64,000 nt of DNA. Origin: Tubulanus polymorphus (lineage: Eukaryota; Animalia; Nemertea). Below are positions 1 through 62,031 of the stretch, one piece after another. The DNA lies in assembly GCF_964204645.1 (NCBI RefSeq), contig NC_134028.1:16623653-16687652 (forward strand), written 5' to 3'. The notes below the pieces were generated by a model. The model made no database searches, was not told the DNA's origin, and was given only the letters and a program-made list of their open reading frames with translations. Position numbers and translations under genes: made by a program. Position 1 is the first letter of the stretch. The number at the start of each line of letters is the position of its first letter.

Positions 1-3000
1 ATCACAAAAACACCGCCAAAATTTGAGTAATAATGTTTTAGGAAAAGATTATTTTGATGATAAACCTCAAAAAGTAAAAAAACCAACTTCAAAAACTAAA
101 TCCATTTCAAATAAACCTTACATGGAAAATGTTAGAAATTATATTGATTCACTAGAAATAAAAGATACAATTGAAATTTTAGAAACATTACATAGTAAAA
201 TTGGTCCTGCAGCTATTATATTTAGATTTTTTAAAGGTACAACAATAGAAGATTATATTAAATTTAATGAAATAATAGAAAAAATACTAGATTTGATAAC
301 AGATGTTGAATATCCAAAAATTAGTATCTCTGGGAAAGTAAGTTTTATAAAGTCAGAAGAAAAAATGGATTATAATATTCAAACACACCCTGAAGAAATA
401 ATTTCAAAAACACAAATAAAAGAGAACTTAGAAAAAATATTTAATGAATTTAAACGTCATATTGAAGAAAGATATTTTGAGGGTTCTGGCTTAACATTGA
501 ATGAAATTATATATTTAGATTTAAATGTTTACAATACAAAAAGGAATAAAACATCAAAAAGTAATAAAATGTTTAAAAATGATTCAAACTTTACAACAGA
601 AAAGGATATTAAAGCATCATCTTATATTAAATTACCATTTACAACAAAAGCAGTAATAAATGTTCAAAATGAAGATAGTAAATGTTTTCTATGGTCAATT
701 ATTAGTTGTTTACACCCTACAGAAGATATGACGCATAGTTTTAGAATAACAAATTACCGGAAATATGAAACATTATATAAAATTGATCAATATCCAGTAA
801 CTATAAAAATGATTCCTAAAATAGAAAAAGTTAATAATTTAAAAATAAATGTATTTGAATTAATGCAATTACCAAAGACAAAAGGTGAAAATATTAAAGA
901 TTATACATTGGAAGCTTTATATTTAACAGAATATTATGATGATGAAAATGCTATAGATTTGTTATACTACAACAAAGATGAAAACTAAACTAACATTATA
1001 TGTGGTTAAAACAAATTGATTTATTCTTTAGAACAGAAAGTGATCACCATAATAAAATTTATCTACGTAGAAAATGTTTATCTAAATTTATGACTGAGAA
1101 TACATTATTAAAACATAAAGAATTATGTGATAATAAAGATTTTTGAAAATTAATAATGCCAACAGAAAAAGATTATAAATTGAAATTTACTAATCATAAA
1201 TTTAAGAATATTGTTCCATTTGTAATTTATGGGGATTTTGAATCGTCGAATAAAGAATTAACTGATCAAGATAGAAAAGAAATATATAACAAAAAGCAAT
1301 TATTAAAATCAATGGATAAAGGAAATGAATTAAATGAAGACACAATACAAGACCCACCAATTATAAATACAATTAAAAAAGTTCATCAAAGAGCTGCTGC
1401 TTATGGAATTTATATAAAATCAAATTATCCTGAATTATATGAAAGTCAATATATTTCTTTTAGAGGTGAAAATGTAGTTAATGATTTTTGTGATAAAATG
1501 ATTGAATTAGAAAGTGATTTTGCAAAATTATTAAACAAAAATAAAAGAATAATTATGACAAAAGAAGATGAAATTGATTTTAATTATGCAACTCATTGTT
1601 GTTAATGTGAAAAACGTTTTTATTCATTTGATAAAAAAGTTAGAGATCATGATCATTTAAATTCAAAATATCGTGGAGCTGCTCATGAAGATTGCAATTT
1701 ACAAGCTAAGAAAGTTAATTTCGTACCAATATTATTTCATAATTTATCAGGCTATGATACCCATCTATTTATAAAACAATTATCGGGAAAATTGGGAGCA
1801 ATTAATCAAGAAATAGAAGAATATAATGCTATGAATGGTGTAAATGTAAGAAAATATGATTTTAAACTATTAGCTAAAACATCTGAAAATTATATTTCAT
1901 TTCAATTTGGTTGCACAATGAACAAGATTTTAAATTATTGAGATATAAAGGCGCAATTCCTTATTCATTTTATAAAACACACAATGATTTTAATGTAACA
2001 GAATTATTAAAAGATCAATTTTATGATCAATTAAAAGAGGAGTATGTGAAAGACGAATTGTTTAATAGAACATTAAATATTTGGAACCATTTAAAGATGA
2101 AAAATCATGGCGAATTAGTTGATTTATATTTAAAATCAGATGTTATGATATTGACTGACATATTTGAAAAATTTAGAGAAGTTAATTTGAATCATTTTAA
2201 TGTTGATCCTTGTTATTGCTACTCTAGTCCTGGTTTAACCTGGCAATGTGGTTTAAAATATACAAATGTAGAATTAGATTTATTAAAAGAACCAGATATG
2301 GTTTTATTATTTGAAAAATCAATTAGAGGTGGAATTAGTGGTGTTATGGGAGATAGATATTTTAAAGCAAATGATGAATATTAATTATTATATATTGACG
2401 CCAATAATTTATATGGCTGGGCAATGATGCAACCTCAACCATATAAAAATTTTATATTAACAGAAGTTGAAAATGATGATAAAACTAATTGGGAAAGCGC
2501 AATTATATGAGTTTAGAAGATGAAGCACCAATTGGTTATTTCTTTGTAGTTGATTTAGAATATCCTGAAAATATAAAGTTTAAAACAAGAAACCTTATTG
2601 CCCAGAACATTTAACTGTAGATGATAGTTATTTAAGTGAATACCAGAAGAAAATAAAACCGAAAGATCATGTTTTTACAGAAAAATTAATACTTACTCAA
2701 AATAATAAATACAATTATATTGTTCATTATAGAATGTTAAAACTTTATCTAAAACAAGGAATGAAATTAAAGAAAGTACATAGATATATTGAATTTAATC
2801 AATCGAAGTGGTTAGAAAAATATATAGATTTCAATACTCAACAGAGAACCATATCAAAAACAGATTTTGAAAAAGATTTCTTCAAATTAATGAATAATAG
2901 TTTTTATGGTAAAACATGTGAAAATATTAGAAATAGAAATCATATTGAATAAGTAAATAATTCTGAACGATTAAGACATTTACAATCAAGTCCTAGACAT

Positions 3001-4708
3001 TTAGGAAATAAAAGATTTGAAGATTATTTAACAGCAGTTAAATTAAAAAGAACGTCAATGAAATTTAATAAACCTATATTTATTGGTTCAACTGTTTTAG
3101 AAGTATCAAAATTATTAATGTATGATTTTTATTATAATGTTTTACAACCACTTTTTGGGGAAAAGCATATTGAAATATTATTATTTTGATTCTGTTACAG
3201 CTGACACCCCAATATTATTAAAATGTAATGATAAAATATTGATAAGAAGAATTTCAGAAATAATTCCAAAACAAAATGAATGTTATATTTCATATGGTGA
3301 AAAAGAATTAATACAAATAAATGGATTAATGGATGTTTGGACAAGAAATGGATGGAAAAAATTAAAGAATATTATTAGACATAAAACAAATAAGAAAATC
3401 TATAGAGTTAGAACTAACTTAGGATTTGTAGATGTTACAGAAGATCATAGTTTAATTAAACGAAATGGTGATGAAATAAAACCAATTGATATAAAAATTG
3501 GAGATGAATTATTACATAAAAGATTTTTCCAAAGAATGAATCATATGTCATTCGATGAAATTATTGATAATATTTATAATATCGAACCCGAAACATTAGA
3601 AGAAAAAGAATATTTTATCAAAGGATTTTTCATGGGTGATGGTTCAGCAGGTGTGTATAATTATGTTTGGGGTAATAAATATTGTTGGTATTTATGCAAT
3701 CAAGACTTAAAATTATTAGAAAGAATTAAGAAATTCTGTGAAGAAGTTTATTCACATAAAACATTTAGAATCATGGATCATATGAAATCAACAGCAGTTT
3801 ATAGAATACTTGTAAATAACCCTAAAGATTTTGCTATAAAATATAATGATGAATTCTATATTCATGCAATAGTGAAAAGTAATACTTCAACTAAAGAAAA
3901 GATAGTTCCAGATTATGTATTAAATGCAAAAAATAATTTAAGAAAATGGTTCTTCATTGGGTTCTATGCTGCAGATGGTTCAAAAAGTTCCAAAAACCGC
4001 AAAACGATATCTTTAGCTCAAAAAGGAAAAGTTGCTATATCAGGATTGAATATATTATGCAATTCATTAGGTTTTAATATGAATATTGGATTGATTAAAT
4101 CTAAACCAAATTGCTTTAATTCAAGCCATGTAGAAAATGAGTTAACAGAAGAAGTTACAGATTTATTTGAAATATATAACCCAACAGATTATGTTTATGA
4201 TTTATCAACTGAAGATGGTACATTTAACTGTGGATTTCCATTAATAGCCAAAAATACGGACGCCTACATACTAAAAATCAAGACAAATGACATAACAAAA
4301 GACTTAAAAACATTAAAACATCATTTTGATTTTAGCAATTATCCCAAAGATCATGAACTATTTAGCAATGATAATAAAAAGATTCCTGGTAAGTTTAAAG
4401 ATGAATTAGGGGGTGATGAAATGATTGAATTTGTTGGGATAAGAAGTAAAATGTATAGTTACAGAACAAAAGATCATGAAGCTAAAAAGTTAAAAGGAAC
4501 AACAAAACATGTGGTTGATAAACATATAGAATTTCAAGATTATATAAAGTGTTTATATAACTCATTGTAATGAAACACAAAATGAATTGTTTAAGATCAG
4601 AAGATCACGAGATGTACATTAATGAAGTTGAAAAAACTAGTTTAAATCCATTTGATGTTAAAAGACATTTCAGATGATGGTATAAAAACATTACCTTATG
4701 GCCATTAA
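1..4708 (+). pseudogene. Protein-primed family B DNA polymerase of copy A, intein-containing, with multiple stops and frameshifts
   Basis: Fragments carry DSKCFLWSI, YGDFES, RDHDH, YIDANNLYGWAM, KLMNNSFYGK and YFD..TD motifs, collinear with the intact 1344-aa pPolB at 45406-49440. Confidence 0.93.
3191..4255 (+). mobile_element. Intein (355 aa) with LAGLIDADG homing endonuclease, inserted in the pPolB catalytic motif (YFD|intein|TD)
   Basis: Starts SVTADTP; block B VTEDHSL; two LAGLIDADG helices (FIKGFFMGDGS, FFIGFYAADGS); block F YVYDLST; ends AKN before Thr. Absent from the YFDTDS motif of copies B and C. Confidence 0.95.
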
Positions 4709-5691
4709 AACAGAAAATCAATATCATCATACTCGAAATCACTATTGGCTTCTTCATTTTCATTTAATTGTTCTTGTATAATTTGTTTAGGTTCTTCCAT
4801 TTCATTTTTCTCATTTAAATAACGTGTTATATTATTCCACATTTCATCTCGCTCTCTTTGTTTCTTTTTGTTTGTTAATTCATCAAATGGAATTATAATA
4901 TCTATGTTTAAATAATTTACAATCTTATTTAAAAAGAATTCATAATTTATTGAATCTGTTATTCTATTTTCCAAATGATACATTAATATTTGTTTAGATA
5001 TTTTTTTTTTATTTTCCATATCTTCTTCTGTTAATTTAGGTTTTTCATAATAATCGTTAAATAATAAATACAAATACATTTTCTTTTGTTTTGTGTTAAA
5101 TGTTGACTGAATAATTGTTTTTATAATATCTATTTTAGTTATTTCACCATTTTTATTTTCTATTATTTTCATTTTTTCAAGCCATTGCATATATTCTGGT
5201 GTATGATCTTCTATAGAAAATATTTTAAAAATTTCATCTAGATAATTTAATTTTGGATCTATGAGAAAATTTCTAGTTTTTTCTTCACCCCATAAATTCT
5301 TTTGCCATCCACAATCAACACAAAATAACACAGTACCTTCTTGTCTTAAGGTCGCATAACTACATTGTGGACATTTTCGTTTATAATTTATTGGTAATAG
5401 ATCTTCATTAAGCTCCAGGAACCAGTTCCACAGTTGTGAGTTAGAGTTAACTCTCAGTTAAAGTCAGTTCATTTTCAATGTTTTAACCCAGGGTCAAATC
5501 TTAACTCAGAACTGTGGAACTGGACCCTGGTATTTTCTTACGTTTTCTTTATGTTTTATTGTTCTATTATGTAGATTTGAATTACTTGTTGTAATAATCA
5601 ATTTACAATATTTACAATAATATGTTTTTCTTGTTAATTCATTATATTGTTTTTCTAACTTTTCAACTGTTTCTTTATTATCTGGTATCAT
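4705..5691 (-). pseudogene. Zinc-finger/Cys-rich hypothetical gene of copy A, interrupted by a MITE
   Basis: ORFs 5506-5691 (CKYC..H..H) and 4705-5331 (CVDC) flank an inverted-repeat insertion at 5415-5530. Confidence 0.55.
5415..5530. mobile_element. MITE-like short inverted-repeat element
   Basis: CCAGGAACCAGTTCCACAGTTGTGAGTTA at the left is an imperfect reverse complement of TAACTCAGAACTGTGGAACTGGACCCTGG at the right; more GC-rich than its flanks. Confidence 0.7.
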
Positions 5692-5695
5692 TTTC

Positions 5696-6145
5696 TCATA
5701 TTTTTATTTTTTCTAATAAACTATTTTTTCTTTCATTGAATTCAGTTTCAAATTTATTAGAAATTTTATCTATATGTACTTTACGAAATTGATGATTCTC
5801 CCTATCTTCTATATTTTCAGCGTTATATTTTATTCGACATGGCTCACAGAAATGATCTTTTATATTATCCTTATCATAGAATAAGAAAGGTCTTTTCCAA
5901 ATAATTTCAGGTTCAACTTCAACAGAATTACTATTACTTTCATTACTATCAACATTAGCCGTTGCGCCATTAATTTTACACTTCTCTGAATGTTTTTTAA
6001 CATAATTTCTTGAGAATAATTTATTACATTTTGGACAGTTTAGTTTAGGGGGTTTATAATTTTCATCATGTTTTTTCATATGTCGAGCCATATTACTTTT
6101 TCTTAGAAGTTCACCACAAATTTCGCATGGTATCTTCTCATCCAT
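5696..6145 (-). CDS. C2H2 zinc-finger protein (copy A accessory gene)
   Basis: CEICGELLRKSNMARHMKKH and CPKCNKLFSRNYVKKHSEKC fingers; TAAATG start context. Confidence 0.75.
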   Translation of the reverse strand: MDEKIPCEICGELLRKSNMARHMKKHDENYKPPKLNCPKCNKLFSRNYVKKHSEKCKINGATANVDSNESNSNSVEVEPEIIWKRPFLFYDKDNIKDHFCEPCRIKYNAENIEDRENHQFRKVHIDKISNKFETEFNERKNSLLEKIKI

Positions 6146-6213
6146 TTATTAAGGAAAAATTTTATTAAAATTAATTTTTAGTGATGAGCAGTAATTTTTT
6201 TATGTTATAAATC

Positions 6214-6971
6214 ATGGTAGAATTAAAAGAATACAGAATATTTGTTGATTCTAGAAAACTTACAAATTATAAATCACATAATTTAATAGTTCAATTAGAT
6301 AGAGAATTTAAGAATTGTGTTGATTTAAAATTAGTAAATATAAGTTTATGTAACTCATTTTACAATATATCGGATAAAAGTCTAGAACATTTAATTTTTT
6401 CAATCTTTTACAAAAAAGGAATAAATGGTTTTTTATATATTTAAAACCAGGATTATATAATTTAGATACATTAGCACAAGAAATTAATAGAAAAGCTCGA
6501 GCTAAATTAGGAAGTGATTCCGGATTTAGTATTAGAATTTTAAAAAGTGATAGTTCTAATAAAATAAAGATTAGGTTAGCTAATGACGAACAATTTAAAT
6601 TTACAGTAAGAAAACCTTTAGGTAAACTGTTAGGAATTAACCCAGATATTGTTACAGCATACGCAGAAGGTAAATCAAACTTAATACCTTTTACACATTT
6701 TTATATTTATTGCAATTTAATTGACCCAACAAAAACATTTGAAGCAACTAAAGATACAATTTGTAATTCTAGTATATTAAATATTTTACCATTAAAAAAT
6801 GTTAAACAATTTGGAACGCAAATAAATTATAATTTAACTGAATGTGATTTTAAACCTTGTATTCCACATTTCAATAATTTTAAATTAGAAATAAGAAATC
6901 ATAATGGTTATTTAATTGATTTGAATAACTTTCCTGTAATTTATGAATTAGTTATAAGATGTAAAGAGTAA
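6214..6971 (+). pseudogene. Minor capsid (penton-like) protein of copy A, frameshifted
   Basis: Homologous to the intact ORF at 44262-45020; frameshift near 6410-6440. Confidence 0.8.
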
Positions 6972-6987
6972 TTTTTTCACTATATAA

Positions 6988-7344
6988 ATGATTATAACTG
7001 TTGGACCGAGTATATGTTTTGGATTTGATTTTAAACGTGAGAAAGAAATGAAATTTAACATTAATGATGTAATTACACATATCAAAAATATTGCATTTTC
7101 TAATGAAACAACATTTGAGTATGAAACAACAATAGATAAAGAAACTTTAAATGTAGAAACGATTACTAATTTAATTAGAGAATCTTTAAGATTTTATGAA
7201 TTAGATGAAGATTTTATTATCGATGATATTAAAAAAATAATAATTGAAATATATACAAATGAAACTAGTAATGAAATAAATGTTGAATTAATCATAAATA
7301 AGTTTACTAAATATTTTGAAGTAATTTTTTTGATTAATAAATGA
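6988..7344 (+). CDS. Polinton hypothetical protein (homolog of 43904-44245)
   Basis: Shared ITVGPSICFGFDFK N-terminus; syntenic. Confidence 0.75.
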   Translation: MIITVGPSICFGFDFKREKEMKFNINDVITHIKNIAFSNETTFEYETTIDKETLNVETITNLIRESLRFYELDEDFIIDDIKKIIIEIYTNETSNEINVELIINKFTKYFEVIFLINK

Positions 7345-7562
7345 GTGATAATAAGTGGATAATAACTGGAATATATAATGACGCATTACTATCAGTTGGA
7401 ACTGTTGGTTATTCAATGGTATTAAAAAAAGTATTCAAAATGGGAAGTGTTAATGTTGATAGATTTGATATAAATGATATCTTAAAATTAACATTAGCAG
7501 TTACTTTATCTAATTTAACTATTGATTATTTAGAAAAACAAAAATATATTCCCCCCATATAA
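7341..7562 (+). CDS. Small hydrophobic Polinton protein (73 aa)
   Basis: Near-identical to 28525-28746 and 43682-43903; two hydrophobic segments. Confidence 0.8.
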   Translation: MSDNKWIITGIYNDALLSVGTVGYSMVLKKVFKMGSVNVDRFDINDILKLTLAVTLSNLTIDYLEKQKYIPPI

Positions 7563-7586
7563 ATGCATAATTTTTTTGCTAAATAA

Positions 7587-8009
7587 ATGGCTTCTGCAAT
7601 TATAACTATTATAGGATCGGCAATTGTTAACGCTTTAGCATTTACTGGTGGCGGTTATTTATTTAAGCATATTGATAAAAATAGTTCATTAGGAGAACAA
7701 AGAAGACATAATTTAGCATTAGAGAAATATAATAAAGCAGCAGAAGAATACAGAGAAAAACGACAAAACTATATGGATTATATTAACAAGGAATTATATG
7801 ATCAGAAGATTTCACATAGAGATTTTCAATCAGTTGATGATGCAATGAGTTTATATAACGCAGTAACCAATAAAGAAAAATTACATCTATACAAACCTAA
7901 ATTATCAGATTATCATACCCCAAGTAAAGAACAACAGAAATATGAAATAATTTGGATTTTAGGTGGAACAGTTATTGTTATATTTGTAGCATATAAATTT
8001 ACTAATTAG
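7587..8009 (+). CDS. Polinton membrane-associated protein (140 aa)
   Basis: Hydrophobic N- and C-termini with a central coiled coil; near-identical to 43234-43656. Confidence 0.8.
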   Translation: MASAIITIIGSAIVNALAFTGGGYLFKHIDKNSSLGEQRRHNLALEKYNKAAEEYREKRQNYMDYINKELYDQKISHRDFQSVDDAMSLYNAVTNKEKLHLYKPKLSDYHTPSKEQQKYEIIWILGGTVIVIFVAYKFTN

Positions 8010-8028
8010 TAATTTTTTTTCTAAATAA

Positions 8029-8463
8029 ATGGAAGATAAAGTTGATAGTATTGATATTATTCCTCATGATATAAATAAAAATAAATTAAAAATATATTTA
8101 GAAAAACAAATATTAGAATTTGAAAGTGACTTAAAGATAAAAAAGAAAAAATATTTAAAAAGTAAAATTATATGTTATCTTATTATTAGTGGTTCGGTTA
8201 CAATTAGTTCTGTTATAACATTTCTAGCAATATTCAGTCCATTAACACCTTTAGCTATATCAATTGGTGTATTAGGATTAAGTTCAAGTGTTTTAACTGG
8301 TATAAGTTCAAAATTAAATATAAAATGTAATAAAGAAAAAATTAAAACTAATATAAAAGAAATTAATAAATTGAAGAATACACTAGATTATATAATAAGT
8401 TTAAATGGTCATATAACAGTTGAAGAACAAGATAAATTATTAAAAGAATTAATAACTTATTAA
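8029..8463 (+). CDS. Polinton two-TM protein (144 aa)
   Basis: Hydrophobic hairpin flanked by coiled coils; near-identical to 27595-28029 and 42780-43214. Confidence 0.8.
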   Translation: MEDKVDSIDIIPHDINKNKLKIYLEKQILEFESDLKIKKKKYLKSKIICYLIISGSVTISSVITFLAIFSPLTPLAISIGVLGLSSSVLTGISSKLNIKCNKEKIKTNIKEINKLKNTLDYIISLNGHITVEEQDKLLKELITY

Positions 8464-8479
8464 TTTTTTAATTAAATAA

Positions 8480-9866
8480 ATGGTAGATGGTTTTCCAAAA
8501 GCTTTCCAGTATAGTAAATCAATTAAATATAATATTCCAGCAATAGATTTTAATAAAGATATCACATATAGAAATGAAGTTTTAGATTCATTAACTAATT
8601 TAGAAATTTATGTTACTGAAAATAATAATTTTAATGCAAAGATGGAAAATATATTTCATGTATATTTAATTAATTTAAAAAAATTGAAAGATGAAAAACA
8701 ATGGTTATTAAAATCTAATATGAAGTATTGGCAGAACCAATTAAATTTTGCTGTTTATTGTGCAACAACAGGATGTGGAATTAGCTGGAATGATCATTTG
8801 AATAATTCTAAATATAAATTAATTCAAAGTTTATTTAGATTTCATACATACTTTCAAATCAGAATAATATTAAATGAATTAGAGTGCGCTTTACCAGGAT
8901 CTAGGTATTTTAAAGAATTAGATAATAATATTAATTTATCAAAGTTTTATAAAATTTGTAATGAATTTAATATAGATATAAATAATTCCGATTTTAGAAC
9001 AAAAATTGGAACAATAAGATCACTTCCTTGCCCTAAAAAGATTGCAGAATATTGTGCACTTCCCATACCATCTAATAGTTTTTCATAATATCTATAGTAA
9101 TAAATTAGGTTATGGTAAAATAGAAACTAAGGATTTAGAAACATTAAATTTCAATAAATTACCGACATTTTATGATAATTTAAAACAAGAAAACAATAAT
9201 GGTTGGGTTTATTTCATTTTAGAAAATAATGAAGGTTTTACAAAATCAGGTATACAAAGAATAAATCAATCTATTAGAACTTATTTGATATGTATTTTAG
9301 GTGCGCAAGTTGAAACAAGATCCCAAATAATTGAAAATTTAAATACATCATTTGATGCACAGAAACAATTCAAAGTATTATTTGAAGATTCTATTCATAA
9401 TGATAAAAATAGATCGATTCCAGAAAACATTGTAAGATATCAAAATTATTTAGATAAATCTCGTGTAAGACTAAATTATTGTATAGGCCCTAATCTATTA
9501 ATTATTTCTAATGATTTAGTACTAAAGATGGGAAACATAATTGGTTACAATAATCTAATTAAAACTGCAACAATAAATAATTCATTTGGATTAAATGATA
9601 TAAATAAAAAGATTATTACCGCTCCAAAATTAATGGAAGGTGAAAAAAATAAAAAACATATTCAATCAACAGAAACTAAAACTAAGAATATTAAATTAAA
9701 TAATGATTCTAAACCGGATTATAATACATCAGAAAATATTAAAACTGATAATATTCAACATGATATAATTAAAACTGATAATGATAATTAATCCCATGAA
9801 AATACTAAATAAGCTTTAACTTGTATAGGAATTGTTATAGGAGGAATATTGTATTTTAAATTTTAA
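8480..9866 (+). pseudogene. Conserved Polinton protein (WQNQLNFAVYCATTGCG family), disrupted
   Basis: Two overlapping ORFs plus downstream stops; homologous to the intact ORF at 41375-42763. Confidence 0.8.
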
Positions 9867-9882
9867 TTTTTTTATTATATAA

Positions 9883-11330
9883 ATGGATGTAGAAGGTGGA
9901 GAAGATATTGGAATGGATAATTTTGATGAACCTGGCATAACTGATGAACAACAACCTGATTTTAGTGAAACAAGTTATAATGATGGTAATGAGCCAGGAT
10001 ATAATAATAATAATATAAATATGCCTGATTATATTAAAAATGCAGAATCACAATTAAATCCTGAAAATTTAGATCCAGATTTAGTAAAAAAAAGATTTAG
10101 ATAATTTAAACAAAATAGAGAAATTAGAATATATAATTGAAAATTCTAAACTTCACATAAATGATGAAGACGTTGGACCATTAGCAGATAAATTAAGATT
10201 TTTAGATAATGGTAAATGTTATTATCGTTTGAAAGGTGATTATTATATTGATATCACTAATCAAAGGACAAAACTAAAAAAAATATTAGCGGAATCAACT
10301 TTGAAAAATTTAGAAACATTTAGAATTAAGAGAATAAGTAATAGTTATGAAATAACTGATGTTACACAAAAAGAAATAGATGATAATATAGACGTATTTA
10401 AACAAAGAATTAATGAATTATTTGAAATAATCAAAAAGAAATCAGAAACAGAAACAACTTCTGAACAGAATATAACTTCCAAAACTAGTAAACTTAAATC
10501 AAATAAAGTTCCAATTGAAAAGCTTTTACCGAATGGATTAATTGATGCAACAGATCAAGAATTAGAAGATTTAGATAATATATTTTCTGTTGAAGCAATT
10601 AGAGAAATTAAAAGTATAAGACTTGCATCTGATAAAATTGCACATGATAAAAGTATAAGAGATTTTAAAATTAGAACTTTAGAAAAAGAATTAACTGATA
10701 AAAATAAAGAAATAGAACAATTAAAGTCTGATCTTGATCGTCAAGTAATTGATGAAATAGAGTAAAGGCAAAAAGAATTACGATTAGAAAAAGAAATTAA
10801 TAATTTAAAAGATAATTTAGAAGTACAGAAAGAAGAAATTCAATTATTATTAAAATCATATGATTATAATATTAATAGATTAAAAGTTATTTTTAAAGAT
10901 TTGTTGATAAAACCAAATTCTGAAATATCATTAAAAGATAGAATAAAGTTATTATTTAAATTAGAAGGAATAACAATTCTTTCAATTCTAACAGCTGTAA
11001 CTATGTTATTTACAACAATTGGTTTAGCAATATCAAATGCTTTAAAATCTACTCCTACTCCAAATAAACAATTCTATACAAGATAAAGTTAAAGATGGTT
11101 TAAAGAAATTAGCAAAATATTTATGGGAACTATCTACAAAATCTGCTGCAGCTTTACCAGGAATTATTGCATCAACTGTTGGTTTTATATTGAAATCTGC
11201 TGGGAATATTCTTAACTTTGCTGCTGAAAATATTATTTTATTTTTAATTACAGTTGTAAGTGCTATTATTTTTGGGTTAGTGAATATGATATCAGAAAGA
11301 TATCAAGAAAAAATAATAAAAAATAAATAA
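9883..11330 (+). pseudogene. Acidic/coiled-coil protein with C-terminal membrane domain (copy A), disrupted
   Basis: MDVEGGED start; C-terminal LKDRIKLLFKLEGITILSILTAV segment matches 39668-40513. Confidence 0.75.
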
Positions 11331-11481
11331 TTAATTTTTTTGTTAAATAAATGAGTGGGAGTCTCTCTGTCACCACATCTTCAAAATATTGTTTATTTAT
11401 GGTAACATCCAATTGGCCAGTACTTCAAATACTGTAAAAACAACCGACTGGGGTTGGGCCAGTAATCGCAAGCAAAGGTCA

Positions 11482-17847: not shown

Positions 17848-18115
17848 AGTAATAGGGAATATCTTGTTTCAGGCCAAAGGTCGAACGGTCGAGCTCGTAA
17901 AAAATGAAAAACATGAGAATAATAACAATTTCTACTTGAATTACTCGCGAAACTCATAAAAATGAAAAATAAATTCTCACACGCTCGAATTTATTTTTCA
18001 TTTTTATGAGTTTCACTCCTAATTCAAGTAGAAATTGTAATTATTCTCATGTTTTTCATTTTTTACTCACCCGCCCGTTCGACCTTTAACCTGAAACAAG
18101 ATATTCCCTATTAGT
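17848..18115. repeat. Terminal fold-back hairpin (268 bp) in the left TIR of copy B
   Basis: Arms of about 129 bp are reverse complements, with mismatch bubbles (CC/TT, TCGAGCTC/GCGGGTGA, CTCGC/GGAGT) around a TCACACGCTC loop. Confidence 0.95.
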
Positions 18116-30905: not shown

Positions 30906-31262
30906 AGTAATAGGGATAATAGGCTTTCAGGCCAAAGGTCGAACGGTCGAGCTCGTAAAAAATGAAAATAATAATAATTTACAGTTGAATTAGTCGCGCA
31001 CACTCCTAATTCAACTGTAAATTATTATTATTTTCATTTTTTACTCACTCGCCCCTTCAACCTTTGACCAGAAAGCCTATTATCCCTATTACTCTTAAAA
31101 TATTCACATATATGAATAAAATATAAATCATTGAACTTCTAAAATCAATTTTAATAAAAAATATAGTATTAAAATGGAAGCAAATAAGTACTACTGCCCA
31201 ACATGTAATATCGATATAGATAAATCCCAAAAAGCAAGACACAATAAAACTAGAACACATTT
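30906..31262 (+). repeat. Left TIR of copy C; its first 188 bp (30906-31093) form a hairpin
   Basis: Reverse complement of 49352-49708; self-complementary arms around a TCGCGCACACTC loop. Confidence 0.95.
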
Positions 31263-32680: not shown

Positions 32681-32804
32681 TAGATATCAAGGAATCGAAA
32701 CAACTTATCAAAAGCAGCGAGGAATGAAAAAGGATGACGTTGATCGAAGAAATGGAAGAGGATTATAAATTATTAACCAATTTAGTAAAAAATATGTATA
32801 ATAA

Positions 32805-33470
32805 ATGGAACCAGAACAACCACAAATTATCAATATTACAAATAACACTGGCGTTATAAACATATATTACAAAAAGTGTTCTAAATGTGAATTAGATAAA
32901 TCATTAACAGAATTTAGTAAGCGTAAGATTAGCAAAGATGGTTTTCAATATTACTGTAAAAATTGCATTAAACTATATACCAAACAATATCGAGAAGATA
33001 ATAGAGAATCTTATAATGATTATATGACAGAATATATGAGAGAAAGATATCAAACAGATCTTAATTTTAGATTGAAACAATGTTTACGGTCTAGATTAAC
33101 ACAATTATTTAACAAAGAAACATATTCAGAAACACTATCTAATCTATTGGGTTGTTCAGATGAATTTCTCAAATCATGGATAATATATCAATTCGACGAT
33201 AAAATGAATATAGATAATTATGGTGAATACTTTCATATTGATCACGTGTTACCAATATCTAAATTTAACATGAATGATGAATACAATAAAAAACTTATTT
33301 GGAGTTGGAAAAATTTAAGGCCTTTAGAAAAGAAGGAAAACATAATTAAATCTAATAAACTAGATATGAAATTATATTTAGATCAACTGGATAAAGCAAA
33401 GACATTTGTTGAATTATGGAATAGTATTTCACAGAATCAACCGCATTCTGAGGTTTTGATCAGTGGTTAG
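32805..33470 (+). CDS. HNH endonuclease with an N-terminal Cys4 zinc ribbon
   Basis: CSKC..CKNC zinc module; HIDHVLP...NLRPL....N..KSNK HNH core. Confidence 0.85.
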   Translation: MEPEQPQIINITNNTGVINIYYKKCSKCELDKSLTEFSKRKISKDGFQYYCKNCIKLYTKQYREDNRESYNDYMTEYMRERYQTDLNFRLKQCLRSRLTQLFNKETYSETLSNLLGCSDEFLKSWIIYQFDDKMNIDNYGEYFHIDHVLPISKFNMNDEYNKKLIWSWKNLRPLEKKENIIKSNKLDMKLYLDQLDKAKTFVELWNSISQNQPHSEVLISG

Positions 33471-35307: not shown

Positions 35308-35313
35308 AATAAT

Positions 35314-36399
35314 ATGAAAAAAGAACAATATTTAAGAGATTTATATTATAACCCAGAAAGTGAAGTATCATATTCTAACGTTTCAGAATTATGGAATAAA
35401 ATTAAATCCGATAATAGTGATATAAAATATAGTGAATTAAAATCATGGTTACAAAATCAACCCACATATCAAATTCATAAAAAGATGGATAAAAAATATT
35501 TAACAAGAAAAGTAATGGTTTCATATATCGATCAACAATGGCAAGCTGATTTAATTGACATGAAAAACTTAGAAGAATACAACAAAGGATATTTCTGGAT
35601 ATTAAATGTTATAGACATATTCAGTCGATACGCATGGAGTATCCCGATTAAAAATAAAACTGGTATAGAAGTTACAAATGCTTTTAAATCTATATTTAAA
35701 GAAGCTATCCCAGATAAAATACAATTTGATGAAGGTAAGGAATTTTATAACAAACATTTTAAAAAACTATTAACTGATAACGATGTAGAATATTTTTCAA
35801 CACATTCAGATAAAAAAGCATCCGTTATAGAAAGATTTAATAAAACATTGAAAACTAGAATGTGGAAATATTTCACCGCTAATGAAACATATAAATATGT
35901 CGATGTGTTAGATGATTTAGTTAAAGGTTATAATAATTCTAAACATAGTTCTATAAATATGAAACCTATACAAGCTAGAAAAGAAGAAAATTCAGAAATA
36001 GTTTGGAATAATTTATATGGTGCGTTTGTTACACATGATTTTGGAGAACCTAAATTTAAAATAGGACAACATGTTAGAATTTCTAAATATAGAAAAACAT
36101 TTTATAAAGGTTATACCCCTAATTTTACTGAAGAAATATTTAAAATTAAAAAGATAATATTAACTAAACCATTTGTTTATAAATTAGAAGATCTAAAAGA
36201 TGAAGAAATATTAGGTTATTTTTATGAACAAGAATTATCACTTGTACCAAATCCAGATGAAATAGAATACAAAATAGAAAAAGTATTGAAAACTAAAACT
36301 CTTAAAGGAAAAAAGTATTCTTTGGTGAAATATAAAGGATATGATGATAAATTCAATGAATGGATTTTATCTAGTAAAATTAAAAGAATAAATGAATAA
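35314..36399 (+). CDS. Retroviral-type (rve) integrase with C-terminal chromodomain
   Basis: DDE triad QADLID / QFDEGKEF / IERFNKTLK; chromodomain YKIEKVLK...LVKYKGYDDKFNEWI. Confidence 0.95.
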   Translation: MKKEQYLRDLYYNPESEVSYSNVSELWNKIKSDNSDIKYSELKSWLQNQPTYQIHKKMDKKYLTRKVMVSYIDQQWQADLIDMKNLEEYNKGYFWILNVIDIFSRYAWSIPIKNKTGIEVTNAFKSIFKEAIPDKIQFDEGKEFYNKHFKKLLTDNDVEYFSTHSDKKASVIERFNKTLKTRMWKYFTANETYKYVDVLDDLVKGYNNSKHSSINMKPIQARKEENSEIVWNNLYGAFVTHDFGEPKFKIGQHVRISKYRKTFYKGYTPNFTEEIFKIKKIILTKPFVYKLEDLKDEEILGYFYEQELSLVPNPDEIEYKIEKVLKTKTLKGKKYSLVKYKGYDDKFNEWILSSKIKRINE

Positions 36400-37006
36400 A
36401 GATTTATTTATATTTGAACCACATAATATGTTAGTTACTGGAGTTACAAATTGTGGTAAAACACACTTCATATTATATTTATTAGAAACTATTTATAAAA
36501 ATCATTTTGATAATATAATATTATTCTGCCCAACTTATGAAATGAATGAAACGTATAATAGAGATATAGTTTTTAAAGATAAAAAGTTTATTATATTAAA
36601 TTCTAAAACAGTGAAAGATAATTTAGATAATTGTATAAAAATTGCAATAGATATTTATAAAGGATCTAATACATTATTTATTATTGATGATTGCGCAAAT
36701 TTACATGATTCAAAAGTTAGAGAAAGTGAGTTATGTTATTTAGCTTTCTCTGGTAGACATTTTGGGATAACAACATGGGTTTTAAATCAGAAATATAATT
36801 CAATTGTGAAAGACTTTAGAGAGAATATAAGATTTCTAGTTTTATTTTATAACAAAGATAAAAAATCTATGCAACAATCATTGGAAGAAAATCAAATTAT
36901 ACCTACTGAATTACATGATGAATATATGAATAAATTAAAGAATAATAAAGGTTCCAAATTACTTATGAGATTACAATTTCCATATGAATATAAATTTATA
37001 AAATAA
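36392..37006 (+). CDS. A32/FtsK-like genome packaging ATPase
   Basis: GVTNCGKT, FIIDD, SGRHFGI and LNQ motifs. Confidence 0.92.
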   Translation: MNKDLFIFEPHNMLVTGVTNCGKTHFILYLLETIYKNHFDNIILFCPTYEMNETYNRDIVFKDKKFIILNSKTVKDNLDNCIKIAIDIYKGSNTLFIIDDCANLHDSKVRESELCYLAFSGRHFGITTWVLNQKYNSIVKDFRENIRFLVLFYNKDKKSMQQSLEENQIIPTELHDEYMNKLKNNKGSKLLMRLQFPYEYKFIK

Positions 37007-37017
37007 AATCCTAATTC

Positions 37018-37405: not shown

Positions 37406-38367
37406 TAATTTTCATTTTCATATTTTTCTTTAAGCTTATTGTATTCTAACCATAAATTCCTTTGCATTTTCATTGGTATAGGTCCTAAATGATTCTCGAG
37501 TTTATATTTATTGAATGTTTTTCTTGAAAATATTTTTGGAATATAATTTTCGATTTCAGTTTTAGATGGATGTTTATTTAAAAATTCTCTAAAATTATAC
37601 CACCGATAATCTAATATATTCTTATTATTAAATTTTGGATTTATAACTGTTGGATTTTCTATTACATTATCTGTACCAATATGTTTAATTGAGTATTTAT
37701 GATTCAATTGTTTATCATATATTACATATTCTTTACATTTTTCACACCAAGATTTAAATACCTGTATTGCATGGGCTGAATCATTTCCACCTTTTGTTTT
37801 TAATTTATAATGTTTTGCCCAATTAGCCTTTGTTATACATTCATTACAGAAGGCACAATAATTCTGATACTCTTTGCATTTATCTTTATATATATTGGCA
37901 TATGTTTTTACTAATTGTAAAATATGTTCATCTTTTTTGATGTGTAATAAATAATCATTATAATTATCAAAATCTTCTTCACAATACATACATCTGATGT
38001 TATCTTTTGGTTGAACATTTGATTTTTCTATTTTAGGTTCAATATTATATTCTATTTTTGTTTCAATCTTATCATCATTCGATGTAGAAGGTATAACGTT
38101 ATCTTCTATTTTAGATTCAATATCATTCTTATCTTCTATTTTAGGTTCAATATTATCTTCTATTTTAGGTTCAATATTATCTTCTATTTTAGGTTCAATA
38201 TTATCTTCTATTTTTGTTTCAATATTCTTATCTATTTTACTTATTCTATATTTGAATTGATTAAAGTAATCTCCAAAATACTTACTGTATTCATCATAAG
38301 GTAATATATAATATATATCTGATATCATTTCACTTGGAGTTTGTATTTCATATATTCCACCTTCCAT
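37405..38367 (-). CDS. Zinc-finger accessory protein with 8-aa IEPKIEDN repeats
   Basis: CMYC..H..H, CAFC and CEKC fingers; 24-bp tandem repeats at about 38130-38225. Confidence 0.8.
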   Translation of the reverse strand: MEGGIYEIQTPSEMISDIYYILPYDEYSKYFGDYFNQFKYRISKIDKNIETKIEDNIEPKIEDNIEPKIEDNIEPKIEDKNDIESKIEDNVIPSTSNDDKIETKIEYNIEPKIEKSNVQPKDNIRCMYCEEDFDNYNDYLLHIKKDEHILQLVKTYANIYKDKCKEYQNYCAFCNECITKANWAKHYKLKTKGGNDSAHAIQVFKSWCEKCKEYVIYDKQLNHKYSIKHIGTDNVIENPTVINPKFNNKNILDYRWYNFREFLNKHPSKTEIENYIPKIFSRKTFNKYKLENHLGPIPMKMQRNLWLEYNKLKEKYENEN

Positions 38368-38399
38368 TTAATATAAGATTTTTTATTAAAGTTAAAATT

Positions 38400-39647
38400 T
38401 TAATACATAACACTATCTAATTGTGAATTTACAATATTTAATTGCGCGTCAGATATAATATAAATGTGCATTTTAAAATTTTTGATTCCCTTTTTCTTTG
38501 TCATGAATAATTGTATTCCATCTTTTGTATTTTGTAATTTTTTCCCAGAACCATGTAATAAGTTATCTTCAGTTGTTCTAAAATCTAACCATAATGCGTA
38601 TTTATTACCGGTATAATAATCAATTTGATTAATGTTACAATTTTCAAATGATTTTATTTTTTCATTCATAAAATGTTTTTTAATTTCTACCCATTGATCA
38701 ATCATTCTCATTCCTTGACAGAATATTTTATTCGCTATACCTTCGATAGTTATTTCTACTTTTGTTATTTCAGGATTATAATAATTATCAACATTTATTG
38801 CACCATTAGTATACGTTCCAATGGTAAAAAATATTAATATACCTTTAATAGATCTTCTAGGAAAGTTAATATTCTCATTAATTATTTCATCATTTGCATT
38901 AATAGTTACAGTTTTAAATTTATCAATATAATCATATAATAATGAAAACCCTTGATTGTATTGAGTTTGAATAATACTTGAAATATTTTCATCAGTTACT
39001 GTATCATATTCTAAACATATATTCGATAATTTATAACTCATATCTTTATTAACGCTAGATAATACAATTTCATTTACAGGAGCAAATGTTATCTCAAATA
39101 TAACGTCTTCTTGAATTGCGTATTTATATAAAGGTGCATTATTATTTATCAATTCAAAGTCTAATGGAATTTTATATTTACTTCCATATATACTTTTTAT
39201 CAATTTATCTACATCATTTGTTAATATTGCGCTATTAGCTTCTGATCTTAATTTATTTTGGTTTTCTGATTGAATACCCTGAAATATCATATTATTTCTA
39301 TTTTCTTTAGTTAACCATAAATCTTTATAATGCATAAATAAATTATAATCATCTAATGAGAAAACTGTTTCTGGACCAATCTTTATTGTTAACTTTTTAA
39401 TCAAATATCTTCCAACATTATCAACGACATAATTATTATTATTACCGATTACTTTTATATCGGCTGATAAATAAATACTGTTTGGAACATAAAAAGTATT
39501 TTGTGTTAATCTAGGAATTCTAACGTATAAAGTTTCATCGGGATTAATATTTGAAGGGTTATGAGTAATTATATGATGTGATCTTTCTGCTTTAATAGCA
39601 TTAGATATTCTATGATTCTTAGAAGGATTGATATAACTCCCACTCAT
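38400..39647 (-). CDS. Major capsid protein (probable double jelly-roll)
   Basis: 415 aa, beta-rich, conserved between copies, in Polinton context; C-terminal LWLDFR...MHIYIISDAQLNI pattern typical of Polinton MCPs. Confidence 0.8.
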   Translation of the reverse strand: MSGSYINPSKNHRISNAIKAERSHHIITHNPSNINPDETLYVRIPRLTQNTFYVPNSIYLSADIKVIGNNNNYVVDNVGRYLIKKLTIKIGPETVFSLDDYNLFMHYKDLWLTKENRNNMIFQGIQSENQNKLRSEANSAILTNDVDKLIKSIYGSKYKIPLDFELINNNAPLYKYAIQEDVIFEITFAPVNEIVLSSVNKDMSYKLSNICLEYDTVTDENISSIIQTQYNQGFSLLYDYIDKFKTVTINANDEIINENINFPRRSIKGILIFFTIGTYTNGAINVDNYYNPEITKVEITIEGIANKIFCQGMRMIDQWVEIKKHFMNEKIKSFENCNINQIDYYTGNKYALWLDFRTTEDNLLHGSGKKLQNTKDGIQLFMTKKKGIKNFKMHIYIISDAQLNIVNSQLDSVMY

Positions 39648-39667
39648 TTATTTAACAAAAAAATTAA

Positions 39668-41359: not shown

Positions 41360-41374
41360 TTACATAATAAAAAA

Positions 41375-42763: not shown

Positions 42764-42779
42764 TTATATAATTAAAAAA

Positions 42780-45020: not shown

Positions 45021-45035
45021 TTATTTTACATATTT

Positions 45036-45377
45036 TCATTCGAAATCTATTTCATGGTGCCCTTTTTCATTCTTACCTTTGTATACGAAATAGAAATCTC
45101 CAGAACATAATTCTTCTAGATCTTCACTTGATAATCTATGAAATCTATCTGGTAAATAAGTTCTGAATTTATATATATTTCCTTTTAATCCTTCATATTC
45201 TAAATGAATTACTAATTTATCTCCATATTTATTAGTAATTGTTTCAATGTTAGTAATTAAATATTTCTTGTGAATTGTTAATTCTGTTAACTTTTTGAAT
45301 TTATAATCTACAGATTTGACGCTCGAAGTATCTTTAATTCTATCTAAGAATTCACTGTGTACTTGTTTACTCTCCAT
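45036..45377 (-). CDS. Small beta-rich protein, possible OB-fold ssDNA-binding protein
   Basis: TNKYGDKLVIHL...TYLPDRF; adjacent to pPolB. The fold is inferred. Confidence 0.6.
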   Translation of the reverse strand: MESKQVHSEFLDRIKDTSSVKSVDYKFKKLTELTIHKKYLITNIETITNKYGDKLVIHLEYEGLKGNIYKFRTYLPDRFHRLSSEDLEELCSGDFYFVYKGKNEKGHHEIDFE

Positions 45378-45405
45378 TTATTATACAAATTTTTATTGAA
45401 ATTTA

Positions 45406-52700: not shown

Positions 52701-53116
52701 GTTATCTCTATATCTTTTTTATTATCTAATGAATTAATATAATTTCTTACATCTTCCATATATGGTCTTGTATTGTTTAATTTATTTTTTATGCTTTTAA
52801 TTGTCTTCTGTTTCTTATCATTATCTTTATCAATATAATCTTCACCTAAAATATCATTATTCTTATTTCTAATATGACTTTTAGATTTTAAATGTTCTTT
52901 ATAATATCTTTTATCACTGAATGATTGATTACATGTATCACATTTGTATGTTTCTTTTTCATTATTTAATTCTTCTAATTTAGTTTCTAATATATCATCT
53001 TCATATTCTAGTTTCAATTTATTCTCTAAATGTGTTTTAGTTTTATTGTGTCTTGATTTTTGGGATTTATCTATATTGATATTACATGTTGCGCAGTAGT
53101 ACTTATTTGCTTCCAT
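49709..53116 (-). pseudogene. pPolB of copy B, 5' part, interrupted by copy C
   Basis: Open reading frame to ...MKFNKPIYV, then reads into the TIR of C (SNRDNRLSG...). Confidence 0.93.
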
Positions 53117-53195
53117 TTTAATAATAAATTTTTTATTAAAATTGATTTAAGAAGTTATTCATTTATATTTTATTCATATATATGAATATTTTAAG

Positions 53196-61425: not shown

Positions 61426-61584
61426 CTTAAAATATTCATATACATGAATAAAATATATATGAATAACATATAAATTGATAGATTATTCAATATAAAAGTG
61501 TGAGTGAAATAATTCATATTTAAAACCGTGAATATTTATATTTATATGCGTTGGATTCATTTTAATAAAAGTTTTGTTATTAAA

Positions 61585-62031
61585 ATGAAGACAGGAGAAG
61601 AAGAACCCAACTTTAAAATCGAAATCAATGAAACCAATAAATCATTTTCATTATTTAACATTAAAAATTATATTTCAGCAACAAATTTAGTGTCCGCAAG
61701 ACATTATAAAATCGATAACATAACTATGATTAATCAAATATTATCAAATGAAACTTATTTAATTACTGAACTAGTAGATACTTTTGATAATGGCGTTAAA
61801 AATCCTAAAATATTCAATACAGTTTTAAAATTAAAAAGAATTTTAGATGAAAACATAATAAATATTCTTAAAACTCCTTTCAATGAAAGAAATGATGATA
61901 TAATACTTTCAAAAGATTACAATGATTTGATTAACTTAAGAATTGAAAAAAGACAATTATATTATTTCAATTTTGATAATAAATTATCTATAATGAAAAT
62001 TCGTCAAATATTGGAATTCAATGTGAATTAG
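61585..62031 (+). CDS. Hypothetical protein of element D
   Basis: ATG at 61585 in the same AATAAAA-N-TTATTAAAATG context as pPolB; no recognisable domain; a HCYCGGKY..H...H zinc-finger-like remnant follows at about 62115-62180. Confidence 0.55.
   Translation: MKTGEEEPNFKIEINETNKSFSLFNIKNYISATNLVSARHYKIDNITMINQILSNETYLITELVDTFDNGVKNPKIFNTVLKLKRILDENIINILKTPFNERNDDIILSKDYNDLINLRIEKRQLYYFNFDNKLSIMKIRQILEFNVN

What the first reader, a model, noticed from the sequence alone, without database searches (positions are those of the whole stretch)
6960..11362. Poxvirus-like promoter grammar: T-tract plus TAAATG before structural genes, A-tract plus TAAA(A)TG before replication genes
Seen: six consecutive starts in A read T6-8, a short spacer, then TAAATG (6988, 7341, 7587, 8029, 8480, 9883), as does the MCP start at 11351, and most homologous starts in B and C. 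pPolB (49440, 53116), the putative SSB (45377), the zinc-finger gene (23153) and ORF 61585 instead read AATAAAA(A)-N~9-TAAA(A)TG. Spacers are only about 15-25 bp. Known: TAAATG overlapping the start codon is the poxvirus late initiator; intermediate promoters have an upstream A-rich core; T6-N7-9-TAAAT is the poxvirus concatemer-resolution/late-promoter consensus. Inference: the element is transcribed by a helper-virus RNA polymerase in two temporal classes.
Basis: partly seen in the sequence, partly recalled or inferred. Interest (0 to 1): 0.85.

Follow-up and report, generated by a model that had tools for sequence, protein, structure and literature searches.

The report
Polintons wired with poxvirus-type promoters
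Virus-like jumping elements (Polintons) in this DNA, and their closest relatives, begin nearly every gene at a short signal matching the start signals of poxvirus genes, so they likely borrow the transcription machinery of a co-infecting poxvirus-like virus that has not been identified.

Summary
The motif is real. The window holds four Polinton copies or fragments. In copy C (30906-49708), 15 of 16 gene starts read TAAA(A)TG, against 54 of 747 other ATGs. It is a clade trait: 32 of 37 homology-checked starts in related contigs, 7 of 43 in AT-rich outgroup Polintons, 2 of 159 in GC-rich ones. It puts T at -3, the reverse of Kozak context. The T-run class matches the published vaccinia late promoter. 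The AATAA-N11-13-TAAA class has the spacing of the intermediate G8R promoter. New here: copy A carries a broken zinc-finger gene with a domain resembling poxvirus late factor VLTF3 (top fold match cowpox VLTF3), behind an intermediate-type promoter. Likeliest reading (0.55): a virophage-like Polinton lineage transcribed by a pox-type helper polymerase. Not shown: any transcript, start site or helper. The structural-versus-replication split has a counter-example (L001), and the concatemer-resolution link fails. Helper-promoter mimicry is known for virophages, and poxvirus-associated PLVs are known, but six literature searches found no pox-type promoters in Polintons. This scan noted the same idea earlier in another genome (e1-8580207, unchecked).

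The parts
1..11362 (+). Polinton copy A: decayed, left end outside the window, cut off four codons into the capsid gene
   Evidence: pPolB in fragments with intein/LAGLIDADG hits
6972..6990 (+). late-type start T6-N7-TAAATG (118-aa gene)
7325..7343 (+). late-type start T7-N6-TAAATG lying inside the 3' end of the upstream ORF
7571..7589 (+). late-type start T7-N6-TAAATG (140-aa gene)
8013..8031 (+). late-type start T8-N5-TAAATG (two-TM gene, weak SLATT hit)
8464..8482 (+). late-type start T6-N7-TAAATG (homologue of C's 462-aa gene, broken in A)
9867..9885 (+). late-type start T7-N6-TAAATG (long membrane-protein gene, broken)
11335..11353 (+). late-type start T7-N6-TAAATG of the truncated capsid gene
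6143..6170 (-). intermediate-type start TTTT-AATAA-N13-TAAATG of the zinc-finger/VLTF3-like gene
4705..6145 (-). broken zinc-finger + VLTF3(A2)-like gene in three pieces (6145-5696, 5691-5506, 5415-4705), with a short inverted-repeat insert near 5416-5531
   Evidence: Pfam Pox_VLTF3 E 7e-4 on the 161-aa piece, not on the 236-aa piece; Atlas 0.95; BFVD top hit cowpox VLTF3 E 1.2e-6; all three pieces match the A2 profile in order; first piece matches P0176
17848..53329 (.). Polinton copy B, interrupted by C inside its pPolB; right end truncated at the hairpin loop
30906..49708 (.). Polinton copy C, 18.8 kb, 357-bp identical terminal inverted repeats, 6-bp target duplication; two genes broken (34353 and 41359)
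38400..39647 (-). [quoted passage not shown]
   Evidence: model pLDDT 84.6; Foldseek PBCV-1 capsid E 1e-15
35314..36399 (+). rve integrase-chromodomain gene; the one start in C without TAAA(A)TG
36392..37006 (+). A32-like packaging ATPase; TAAATG inside the integrase 3' end, no T-run
45406..49440 (-). protein-primed PolB of C with Endo VII insert; intermediate-type start inside the TIR (49438-49465)
53114..53141 (-). intermediate-type start of B's pPolB
45375..45400 (-). intermediate-type start of the 113-aa putative SSB gene
38365..38390 (-). intermediate-type start of C's zinc-finger gene (B homologue at 23153)
32780..32807 (+). AGTAA-N13-TAAATG variant start of a 221-aa gene, labelled HNH-like by eye only
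   Evidence: no HNH Pfam hit
61559..61587 (+). intermediate-type start in fragment D
30906..31093 (.). terminal imperfect palindrome (also 17848-18115, 49521-49708, half at 53196-53329, 61092-61425)

Best explanation
These Polintons carry poxvirus-type start signals at almost every gene and are likely transcribed by the RNA polymerase of a co-infecting poxvirus or close relative, which would read the A-type signals first and the T-type signals later. Shown: the element type, the motif, its clade restriction, its match to published vaccinia geometry, and a VLTF3-like gene behind an A-type signal. Inferred: (1) free element DNA reaches the helper's cytoplasmic factory. (2) Pox early transcription uses machinery packaged with the helper's own core (established knowledge), so the first class open to foreign DNA would be the intermediate one; this would explain why the polymerase, the putative SSB and the VLTF3-like factor carry AATAA-N12-TAAA signals. 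(3) Late factors, perhaps aided or redirected by the element's own VLTF3-like protein where present, then drive the T-run/TAAATG cassette with the capsid gene. (4) Initiation within AAA with slippage would replace the -3 T by a poly(A) leader, which resolves the poor Kozak context. (5) The integrase parks copies in the host genome; how a nuclear copy would be reached again is unexplained. Copies in this window are partly decayed, so the signals may record past dependence.
For: 15 of 16 starts in C against 54 of 747 and 49 of 514 controls. Capsid tree (59 rows, quick IQ-TREE search): clade SH-aLRT 99 with TAAATG at 14 of 15 capsid starts, against 1 of 41 labelled starts outside it. All genes, 13 near-identical loci dropped: 32 of 37, 7 of 43, 2 of 159 (P 2e-10 against AT-rich outgroups). 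The motif persists in contigs of 40-44% GC (L007, L008). A -3 purine occurs at 4 of 37 clade starts against 34 of 43 and 122 of 159. T peaks at -13/-12 (78%, 84%; AT outgroup 63%, 51%); -13 is the 10th base upstream of TAAAT, the conserved T of vaccinia late promoters (PMC11980589 passage). A-type spacing is 11-13 nt at 9 of 9 starts; vaccinia intermediate promoters have a 12-bp spacer, and the printed G8R scaffold reads AAATAA-N12-TAAAATG (PMC12917281 passages). A-type starts have T at that 10th position in 0 of 4 cases, as described for intermediate promoters. Head-to-head CATTTA...TAAATG pairs 13-28 nt apart lie between divergent starts in at least 9 of 16 pattern matches. VLTF3-like domain. 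It sits behind an A-type start in copy A and in L001, and vaccinia A2L is an intermediate gene (PMC5294985 passage). Precedents: virophages share helper promoters (bioRxiv 2022.07.28.501842 passage); PLVs occur in entomopoxvirus occlusion bodies (PMC11296320).
Against: No transcript, start site or helper sequence was found. The class-to-function map breaks in L001, and A-type matches occur only in the nearest subclade (5 of 61 TAA-preceded ORFs, all in L001 and L003-L005). Deeper clade members often keep TAAATG without a T>=5 run (27 of 61 match the T pattern). The integrase start lacks the motif. AATAAA inside coding regions is undepleted in the clade (ratio 0.95) but also in outgroups (0.96, 1.01), so that test does not separate nuclear from cytoplasmic transcription. 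VLTF3 is common to many nucleocytoviruses and is already reported in coral Polintons (PMC11131425). The fold model is modest (pLDDT 67, four sequences); non-pox VLTF3s also rank in the top 13; and the A2 profile found no VLTF3-like domain in B or C. TAAATG also marks L049/L050/L053/L073/L074 and 7 real-looking starts of the differently built Polinton L085, so it may have arisen more than once for reasons other than a pox helper. The host is unidentified, so a poxvirus of this host is not known to exist.
Confidence: 0.55

Rival explanations
1. The element is autonomous in the nucleus: its own VLTF3-like or other factor redirects host RNA polymerase II to start at TAAAT, as polymerase-less small nucleocytoviruses with VLTF2/VLTF3 presumably do.
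For: VLTF3-like gene in A and in L001/P0176. Mriyaviruses have VLTF2 and VLTF3 in 35-45 kb genomes (10.64898/2026.06.19.733378 passage). The integrase implies nuclear access. Unchecked scan notes report TBP-bearing Polintons with private promoter boxes.
Against: The factor was not detected in B or C, which carry the same promoters, and only L001 among the 82 capsid loci hit the profile, though most are short contigs. Pol II starting inside TAAAT would give almost leaderless mRNA.
Confidence: 0.15
2. The motif is a translation or 3'-end feature of tightly packed genes: in-frame TAA next to ATG, stop-restart coupling, or an AATAAA poly(A) signal for the upstream gene.
For: Gaps are 0-32 nt, the T-run often follows the upstream stop codon, and 9 of 16 starts in C have AATAAA across the start.
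Against: AT-rich outgroup Polintons with the same gene set mostly lack it (7 of 43). The bases before TAAATG vary (ATA 10, AAA 10, eight other triplets 12), so AATAAA is not what is conserved. pPolB has the A-type signal with no gene upstream, inside the TIR. Divergent head-to-head starts carry it on both strands. The first-ATG control removes the stop-codon bias.
Confidence: 0.12
3. A helper polymerase is used, but that of a non-poxvirus nucleocytovirus or a cytoplasmic linear element whose promoters happen to look alike.
For: Non-pox VLTF3s are among the 13 fold matches with E<=0.001. Palindromes lie at the ATPase 3' end in C, L001, L003, L004 and L005 and recall the mimivirus hairpin 3'-end rule (recalled). 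Yeast virus-like elements make untemplated 5' poly(A) leaders (PMC6831550, listing only). Egovirus promoters are not discussed in the preprint searched (0 hits).
Against: Among families reviewed in PMC5294985 (passages), TAAAT(G) over the start is described for poxviruses; ASFV uses TATATA and CroV uses TCTA. The two-class geometry matches vaccinia in spacing. Ranks 1, 3 and 6 of the fold search are poxvirus proteins.
Confidence: 0.13
4. Chance pattern in AT-rich DNA, amplified by recent duplication.
For: The elements are about 22-25% GC and near-identical in part; the composite patterns were post hoc.
Against: retention at 51-57% capsid identity and 40-44% GC.
Confidence: 0.02

Closest known systems
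Vaccinia late promoter (T-rich core, spacer, TAAATG; PMC11980589, PMC5294985 passages)
   Same: TAAATG over the start codon; T peak at the 10th base upstream; 5-7 nt spacer; tight gene packing
   Different: Found in an integrase-bearing Polinton with no RNA polymerase gene detected; no transcript evidence
Vaccinia intermediate promoter, G8R (PMC12917281 passages)
   Same: T-run, then AATAA, 11-13 nt spacer, TAAA(A)TG; no T at the 10th position
   Different: Used here for the DNA polymerase gene; the paper calls the core AT-rich without a fixed consensus, so the match is in geometry
Virophages and PLVs sharing helper promoters: Sputnik, mavirus, Gezel-14T/PgVV (bioRxiv 2022.07.28.501842 passages)
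   Same: Small DJR-capsid element without its own polymerase, carrying the helper's promoter motif; mavirus also has pPolB and rve integrase (recalled)
   Different: Their helpers are mimivirus-type viruses of protists and the motifs differ; here the signals are pox-type, in two classes, in what appears to be invertebrate DNA
Entomopoxvirus-associated PLVs (Barth et al. 2024, PMC11296320; abstract, sections 5-6)
   Same: Proposed hyperparasites of poxviruses; PolB, A32 ATPase, DJR capsid
   Different: About 12 kb, with an adenovirus-type protease and no rve integrase; the main text has 0 hits for promoter, motif, TAAAT and transcription (supplements not seen). Relationship of the capsids was not tested.
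Mavericks/Polintons (Polintoviricetes)
   Same: pPolB, rve integrase, A32 ATPase, DJR capsid, long TIRs starting AGT, 6-bp target duplication
   Different: No maturation protease detected; clade-specific pox-type starts; terminal palindromes
VLTF3-bearing coral Polintons (PMC11131425 passage)
   Same: VLTF3 homologue in a Polinton
   Different: That text has 0 hits for promoter; here the domain is fused to zinc fingers and tied to a promoter class

Membership tests
Maverick/Polinton | protein-primed PolB | tested here: met
   1344-aa ORF; 35-39% tblastn matches over about 800-1150 residues to ORFs of outgroup capsid loci; Pfam gave only the Endo VII insert, so the polymerase motifs were read by eye
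Maverick/Polinton | rve integrase | tested here: met
   PF00665 E 2.5e-9 plus chromodomain
Maverick/Polinton | packaging ATPase and DJR major capsid protein | tested here: met
   PF04665 E 7e-12; fold matches
Maverick/Polinton | long TIRs and 6-bp target duplication | tested here: met
   copy C: 357 bp, 100% identical; same 6 bp on both sides
Maverick/Polinton | maturation cysteine protease; minor capsid protein | tested here: inconclusive
   no protease family hit among the ORFs scanned; the minor-capsid label for 45020 is recalled, not tested
Poxvirus late promoter | TAAAT(G) overlapping the start, with T-rich core peaking 10 nt upstream | tested here: met
   against PMC11980589
Poxvirus intermediate promoter | AT-rich core, about 12-bp spacer, TAAA initiator | tested here: met
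   9 of 9 A-type starts at 11-13 nt against PMC12917281
Poxvirus post-replicative promoter | initiation within AAA with untemplated 5' poly(A) leader; stage-specific activity | not testable with these tools
   no RNA holder listed; needs 5' RACE or reporters
Poxvirus concatemer resolution site | T6-N7-9-TAAAT next to the terminal hairpin | tested here: not met
   no match within 400 nt at 4 of 5 palindromes; one inside D's loop insert; position requirement from PMC8956199 passage
Virophage (functional sense) | replication depends on a co-infecting large DNA virus | not testable with these tools
   no helper sequence; no whole genome held
VLTF3 / poxvirus A2 family (PF04947) | N-terminal C4 zinc ribbon plus helical domain matching the family | tested here: inconclusive
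   fold and language-model evidence agree; Pfam score 19.8 is below the cut-off of 25 and absent on the longer piece; Atlas recognition 1953 is below its 2300 mark

The most novel reading that the evidence does not exclude
A whole lineage of animal Polintons are endogenous virophages of poxviruses: they copy the helper's intermediate-to-late promoter cascade, place their polymerase and a captured A2-like late factor in the first class open to foreign DNA, end in mismatched flip-flop hairpins, and so mark undiscovered poxviruses in their hosts and may act as inherited anti-poxvirus defence.
Probability: 0.35. Interest if true: 0.92.

Novelty: new variant of a known kind. Interest (0 to 1): 0.76.

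Why it matters
Whether animal Polintons are autonomous viruses, transposons or helper-dependent parasites is an open question. A promoter grammar readable from sequence alone would name the kind of helper, turn the question into a simple reporter assay with vaccinia, and let genomes be screened for hosts of unknown poxviruses. It would extend the virophage model from protists and mimivirus-type helpers to animals and poxviruses.

Tried and rejected
No whole genome is held, so no search for helper genes or copy number was possible. No RNA holder was listed, and no reads were laid, so 5' ends and end isomers in other copies are untested. Viral contigs gave no capsid, ATPase or VLTF3-like relatives and no match to the pPolB promoter pattern; pPolB gave 3 distant loci. 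Word-indexed searches for the VLTF3-like piece gave nothing or only P0178. The PDB sequence search gave nothing meaningful, and the wide structural search never ran, so no solved-structure match was obtained. Pfam scans of 49 further clade, outgroup and window ORFs found no poxvirus RNA polymerase subunit. AATAAA and splice-donor depletion tests did not discriminate. TTTTTNT is depleted in clade coding strands (17 against 43.6, z -5.2) but also somewhat in outgroups (0.75, 0.61); it was one of 8 patterns tried, and was 7 against 10.7 in C, so it is kept only as a lead. The concatemer-resolution reading was rejected. My recollection that these polymerases carry an HUH domain was dropped: PMC11161782 describes TP-vOTU and has 0 hits for HUH. 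Rfam: 0 matches. The host was not identified; flanks gave only weak F-protein and chromodomain hits. The careful capsid tree did not finish, so the quick tree was used.

Full report
What the window holds. Self-comparison and ORF annotation show four Polinton copies or fragments in higher-GC flanking DNA. A spans 1-11362 and is cut four codons into its capsid gene. C spans 30906-49708, with 357-bp identical TIRs and a 6-bp target duplication. C sits inside the polymerase gene of B (17848-53329), so the apparent pair of polymerases is a nested insertion. D (from about 61092) is a terminal fragment. C encodes an rve integrase (E 2.5e-9), an A32 ATPase (E 7e-12), a 1344-aa PolB and a 415-aa protein whose model (pLDDT 84.6) matches double jelly-roll capsids (E 1e-15). 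No RNA polymerase or protease family was hit. The host is unidentified; weak F-protein and chromodomain hits in the flanks fit invertebrate retroelements.

The observation. The copies are largely redundant, so I used C alone for statistics. 15 of its 16 curated starts read TAAA(A)TG (14 strictly TAAATG), against 54 of 747 other ATGs. TAA before ATG is an in-frame stop, so I also used first-ATG-after-stop controls: 49 of 514. No one of 2000 dinucleotide shuffles reached the observed count. With the initiator fixed, the T-run and A-core patterns still exceeded every shuffle (7 against a maximum of 4; 4 against a maximum of 2). Those two patterns were post hoc.

Independent sequences. A capsid alignment (39 rows) retrieved 82 loci (the best 80 of 144 metagenome hits were kept). 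In a quick tree of the 59 with long enough ORFs, the window groups with 14 contigs (SH-aLRT 99). 14 of these 15 capsid genes start at TAAATG; outside the clade 1 of 41 labelled starts does. Over all genes with homology-checked starts, the unfiltered counts for TAAA(A)TG were 39 of 49 (clade), 12 of 60 (AT-rich outgroups) and 8 of 379 (GC-rich outgroups). After dropping 13 near-identical loci, the window, and fragment or shadow ORFs, strict TAAATG counts were 32 of 37, 7 of 43 and 2 of 159. All seven AT-rich exceptions come from L049, L050, L053, L073 and L074, a possible second lineage. L085, a differently built Polinton, has it at seven real-looking starts. The motif survives in L007 and L008 at 40-44% GC.

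Not Kozak, not poly(A). TAAATG puts T at -3. A purine at -3 occurs at 4 of 37 clade starts, against 34 of 43 and 122 of 159 in outgroups. AATAAA overlaps only 14 of 37 clade starts, and the three bases before TAAATG vary. The polymerase signal lies in the TIR with no upstream gene to terminate. Divergent genes carry the motif on both strands 13-28 nt apart. A -3 T is harmless if transcription starts in the AAA and adds untemplated A's, as poxviruses do (established knowledge).

Match to poxvirus architecture. PMC11980589 (passages) describes late promoters as TAAAT(G) over the start codon, with a conserved T ten bases upstream among other Ts. It describes intermediate promoters as TAAA, lacking that T and with an AT-rich block further upstream. 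In the clade as a whole, T peaks at -13 and -12 (78%, 84%); -13 is that tenth base. The four A-type starts in C have no T there. PMC12917281 (passages) gives a 12-bp core-initiator spacer and prints the G8R promoter as AAATAA, 12 nt, TAAAATG. The nine A-type starts in the window have A(A/G)TAA, 11-13 nt, TAAA(A)TG. TAAATG is annotated at many conserved genes of salmon gill poxvirus (PMC4542343, table passages), so the motif reaches the deepest chordopoxvirus.

Copy A has a broken minus-strand gene in three pieces (6145-4705). Its last piece scored weakly against Pox_VLTF3 (E 7e-4, below cut-off; no hit on the longer piece). The Atlas placed 29 of its 30 nearest clusters in the VLTF3 family (0.95; recognition below the reliable mark). 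A model from four sequences (pLDDT 67) matched cowpox VLTF3 best (E 1.2e-6), with entomopoxvirus VLTF3s at ranks 3 and 6 and other nucleocytovirus VLTF3s among them. An intact 697-aa natural homologue (P0176, 45%) covers the pieces, and its first 68 residues are 96% identical to an L001 ORF. In both A and L001 the gene starts at an A-type signal; vaccinia A2L is likewise an intermediate gene (PMC5294985 passage). VLTF3 in Polintons is already reported (PMC11131425 passage; PMC8502044 lists it for MELD viruses); its tie to a promoter class is what is new. B and C have other zinc-finger genes behind A-type signals, and the profile found no such domain in them.

Results against. The neat split (A-type for replication, T-type for structure) holds in C but not in L001, where the SSB homologue and a deoxynucleoside kinase are T-type and the homologue of 45020 is A-type. 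Of 61 TAA-preceded clade ORFs, 27 match the T pattern and 5 the A pattern, the latter only in the nearest subclade. No clade contig includes a polymerase start. Most cassette genes have no tested function, so 'structural' rests on the capsid gene and position. Tests for avoidance of AATAAA or splice donors did not discriminate. No transcript or helper was found.

Mechanism. Most likely (0.55) a pox-type helper polymerase reads free element DNA in a cytoplasmic factory: intermediate-type signals first, since vaccinia polymerase, capping enzyme and VITF-3 suffice for that class in vitro (PMC12917281), and late-type signals afterwards. These steps are inferred. The rivals are self-directed host Pol II (0.15), another kind of helper (0.13), a translation or 3'-end feature (0.12) and chance (0.02).

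Novelty. Helper-promoter sharing is known for Sputnik, mavirus and PgVV (bioRxiv 2022.07.28.501842 passages). PLVs in entomopoxvirus occlusion bodies are known (PMC11296320: abstract, sections 5-6; term search with 0 hits for promoter, motif, TAAAT; supplements not seen and could bear on this). Searches listed no paper on pox-type promoters in Polintons. Term searches found 0 'promoter' hits in PMC8502044, PMC11131425, PMC10748475, PMC11161782, 10.64898/2026.10.13.758929, 10.64898/2026.06.19.733378 and 10.1101/2024.03.23.586382; PMC11464507 (passages) held nothing relevant. The library lacks most subscription papers. PMC6831550, PMC6211774, PMC10945749 and PMC1079961 were seen as listings only. 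It is unchecked, I found no such subunit in the ORFs scanned here, and it is not counted as support. Verdict: a real, clade-wide feature; a new variant of the virophage-type promoter mimicry, with the helper inferred; interest 0.76.

Noticed in passing
window 17848-18115, 30906-31093, 49521-49708, 53196-53329, 61092-61425: Each element end starts with a 188-335 bp imperfect palindrome whose mismatch bubbles recur between copies. B's two ends are opposite isomers (right inner arm matches the left outer arm, score 256 against 223), while C's are the same isomer. This may reflect flip-flop hairpin replication or template switching; it is one case only.
   Followed up: partly
terminal palindromes, e.g. 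window 17900, 30958, 49573, 53248, 61144: AAAA(A/T)TGAAAA, resembling the vaccinia early promoter core, occurs 17 times in the window, 14 of them inside the hairpin arms. Function unknown.
   Followed up: partly
window 37005-37418; L001 9082-9359; L003 3183-3255; L004 3787-3822; L005 3143-3178: A palindrome lies just past the ATPase gene, between convergent gene ends in C, L003, L004 and L005; a possible 3'-end signal.
   Followed up: no
window 3122-4570: The PolB of copy A carries an intein with a LAGLIDADG domain (E 5.5e-7, 2.6e-8), not seen in the PolB of C.
   Followed up: no
window about 5416-5531: A short inverted-repeat insert (MITE-like) interrupts the VLTF3-like gene.
   Followed up: no
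L001 10340-10981; L007 2895-3377: Two clade members encode a deoxynucleoside kinase (PF01712, E about 1e-31).
   Followed up: no
L085; L049, L050, L053, L055, L073, L074: Further Polinton lineages have TAAATG starts and head-to-head pairs; L085 has a long N-terminal extension on its integrase.
   Followed up: partly
clade coding regions: TTTTTNT, the poxvirus early terminator pattern (recalled), is depleted (17 against 43.6 expected), less so in outgroups.
   Followed up: partly
window 18195 and 31174: Because the TIR includes the polymerase promoter and first codons, the opposite end carries a second copy that drives a short zinc-finger stub.
   Followed up: no
window 62252-63741: A 24-bp tandem array of 63 copies gives spurious repetitive ORFs.
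   Followed up: no
P0046 cluster: Capsid homologues (54%) are filed under several Bartonella sp. labels on short contigs, probably co-assembled eukaryotic or viral DNA.
   Followed up: no
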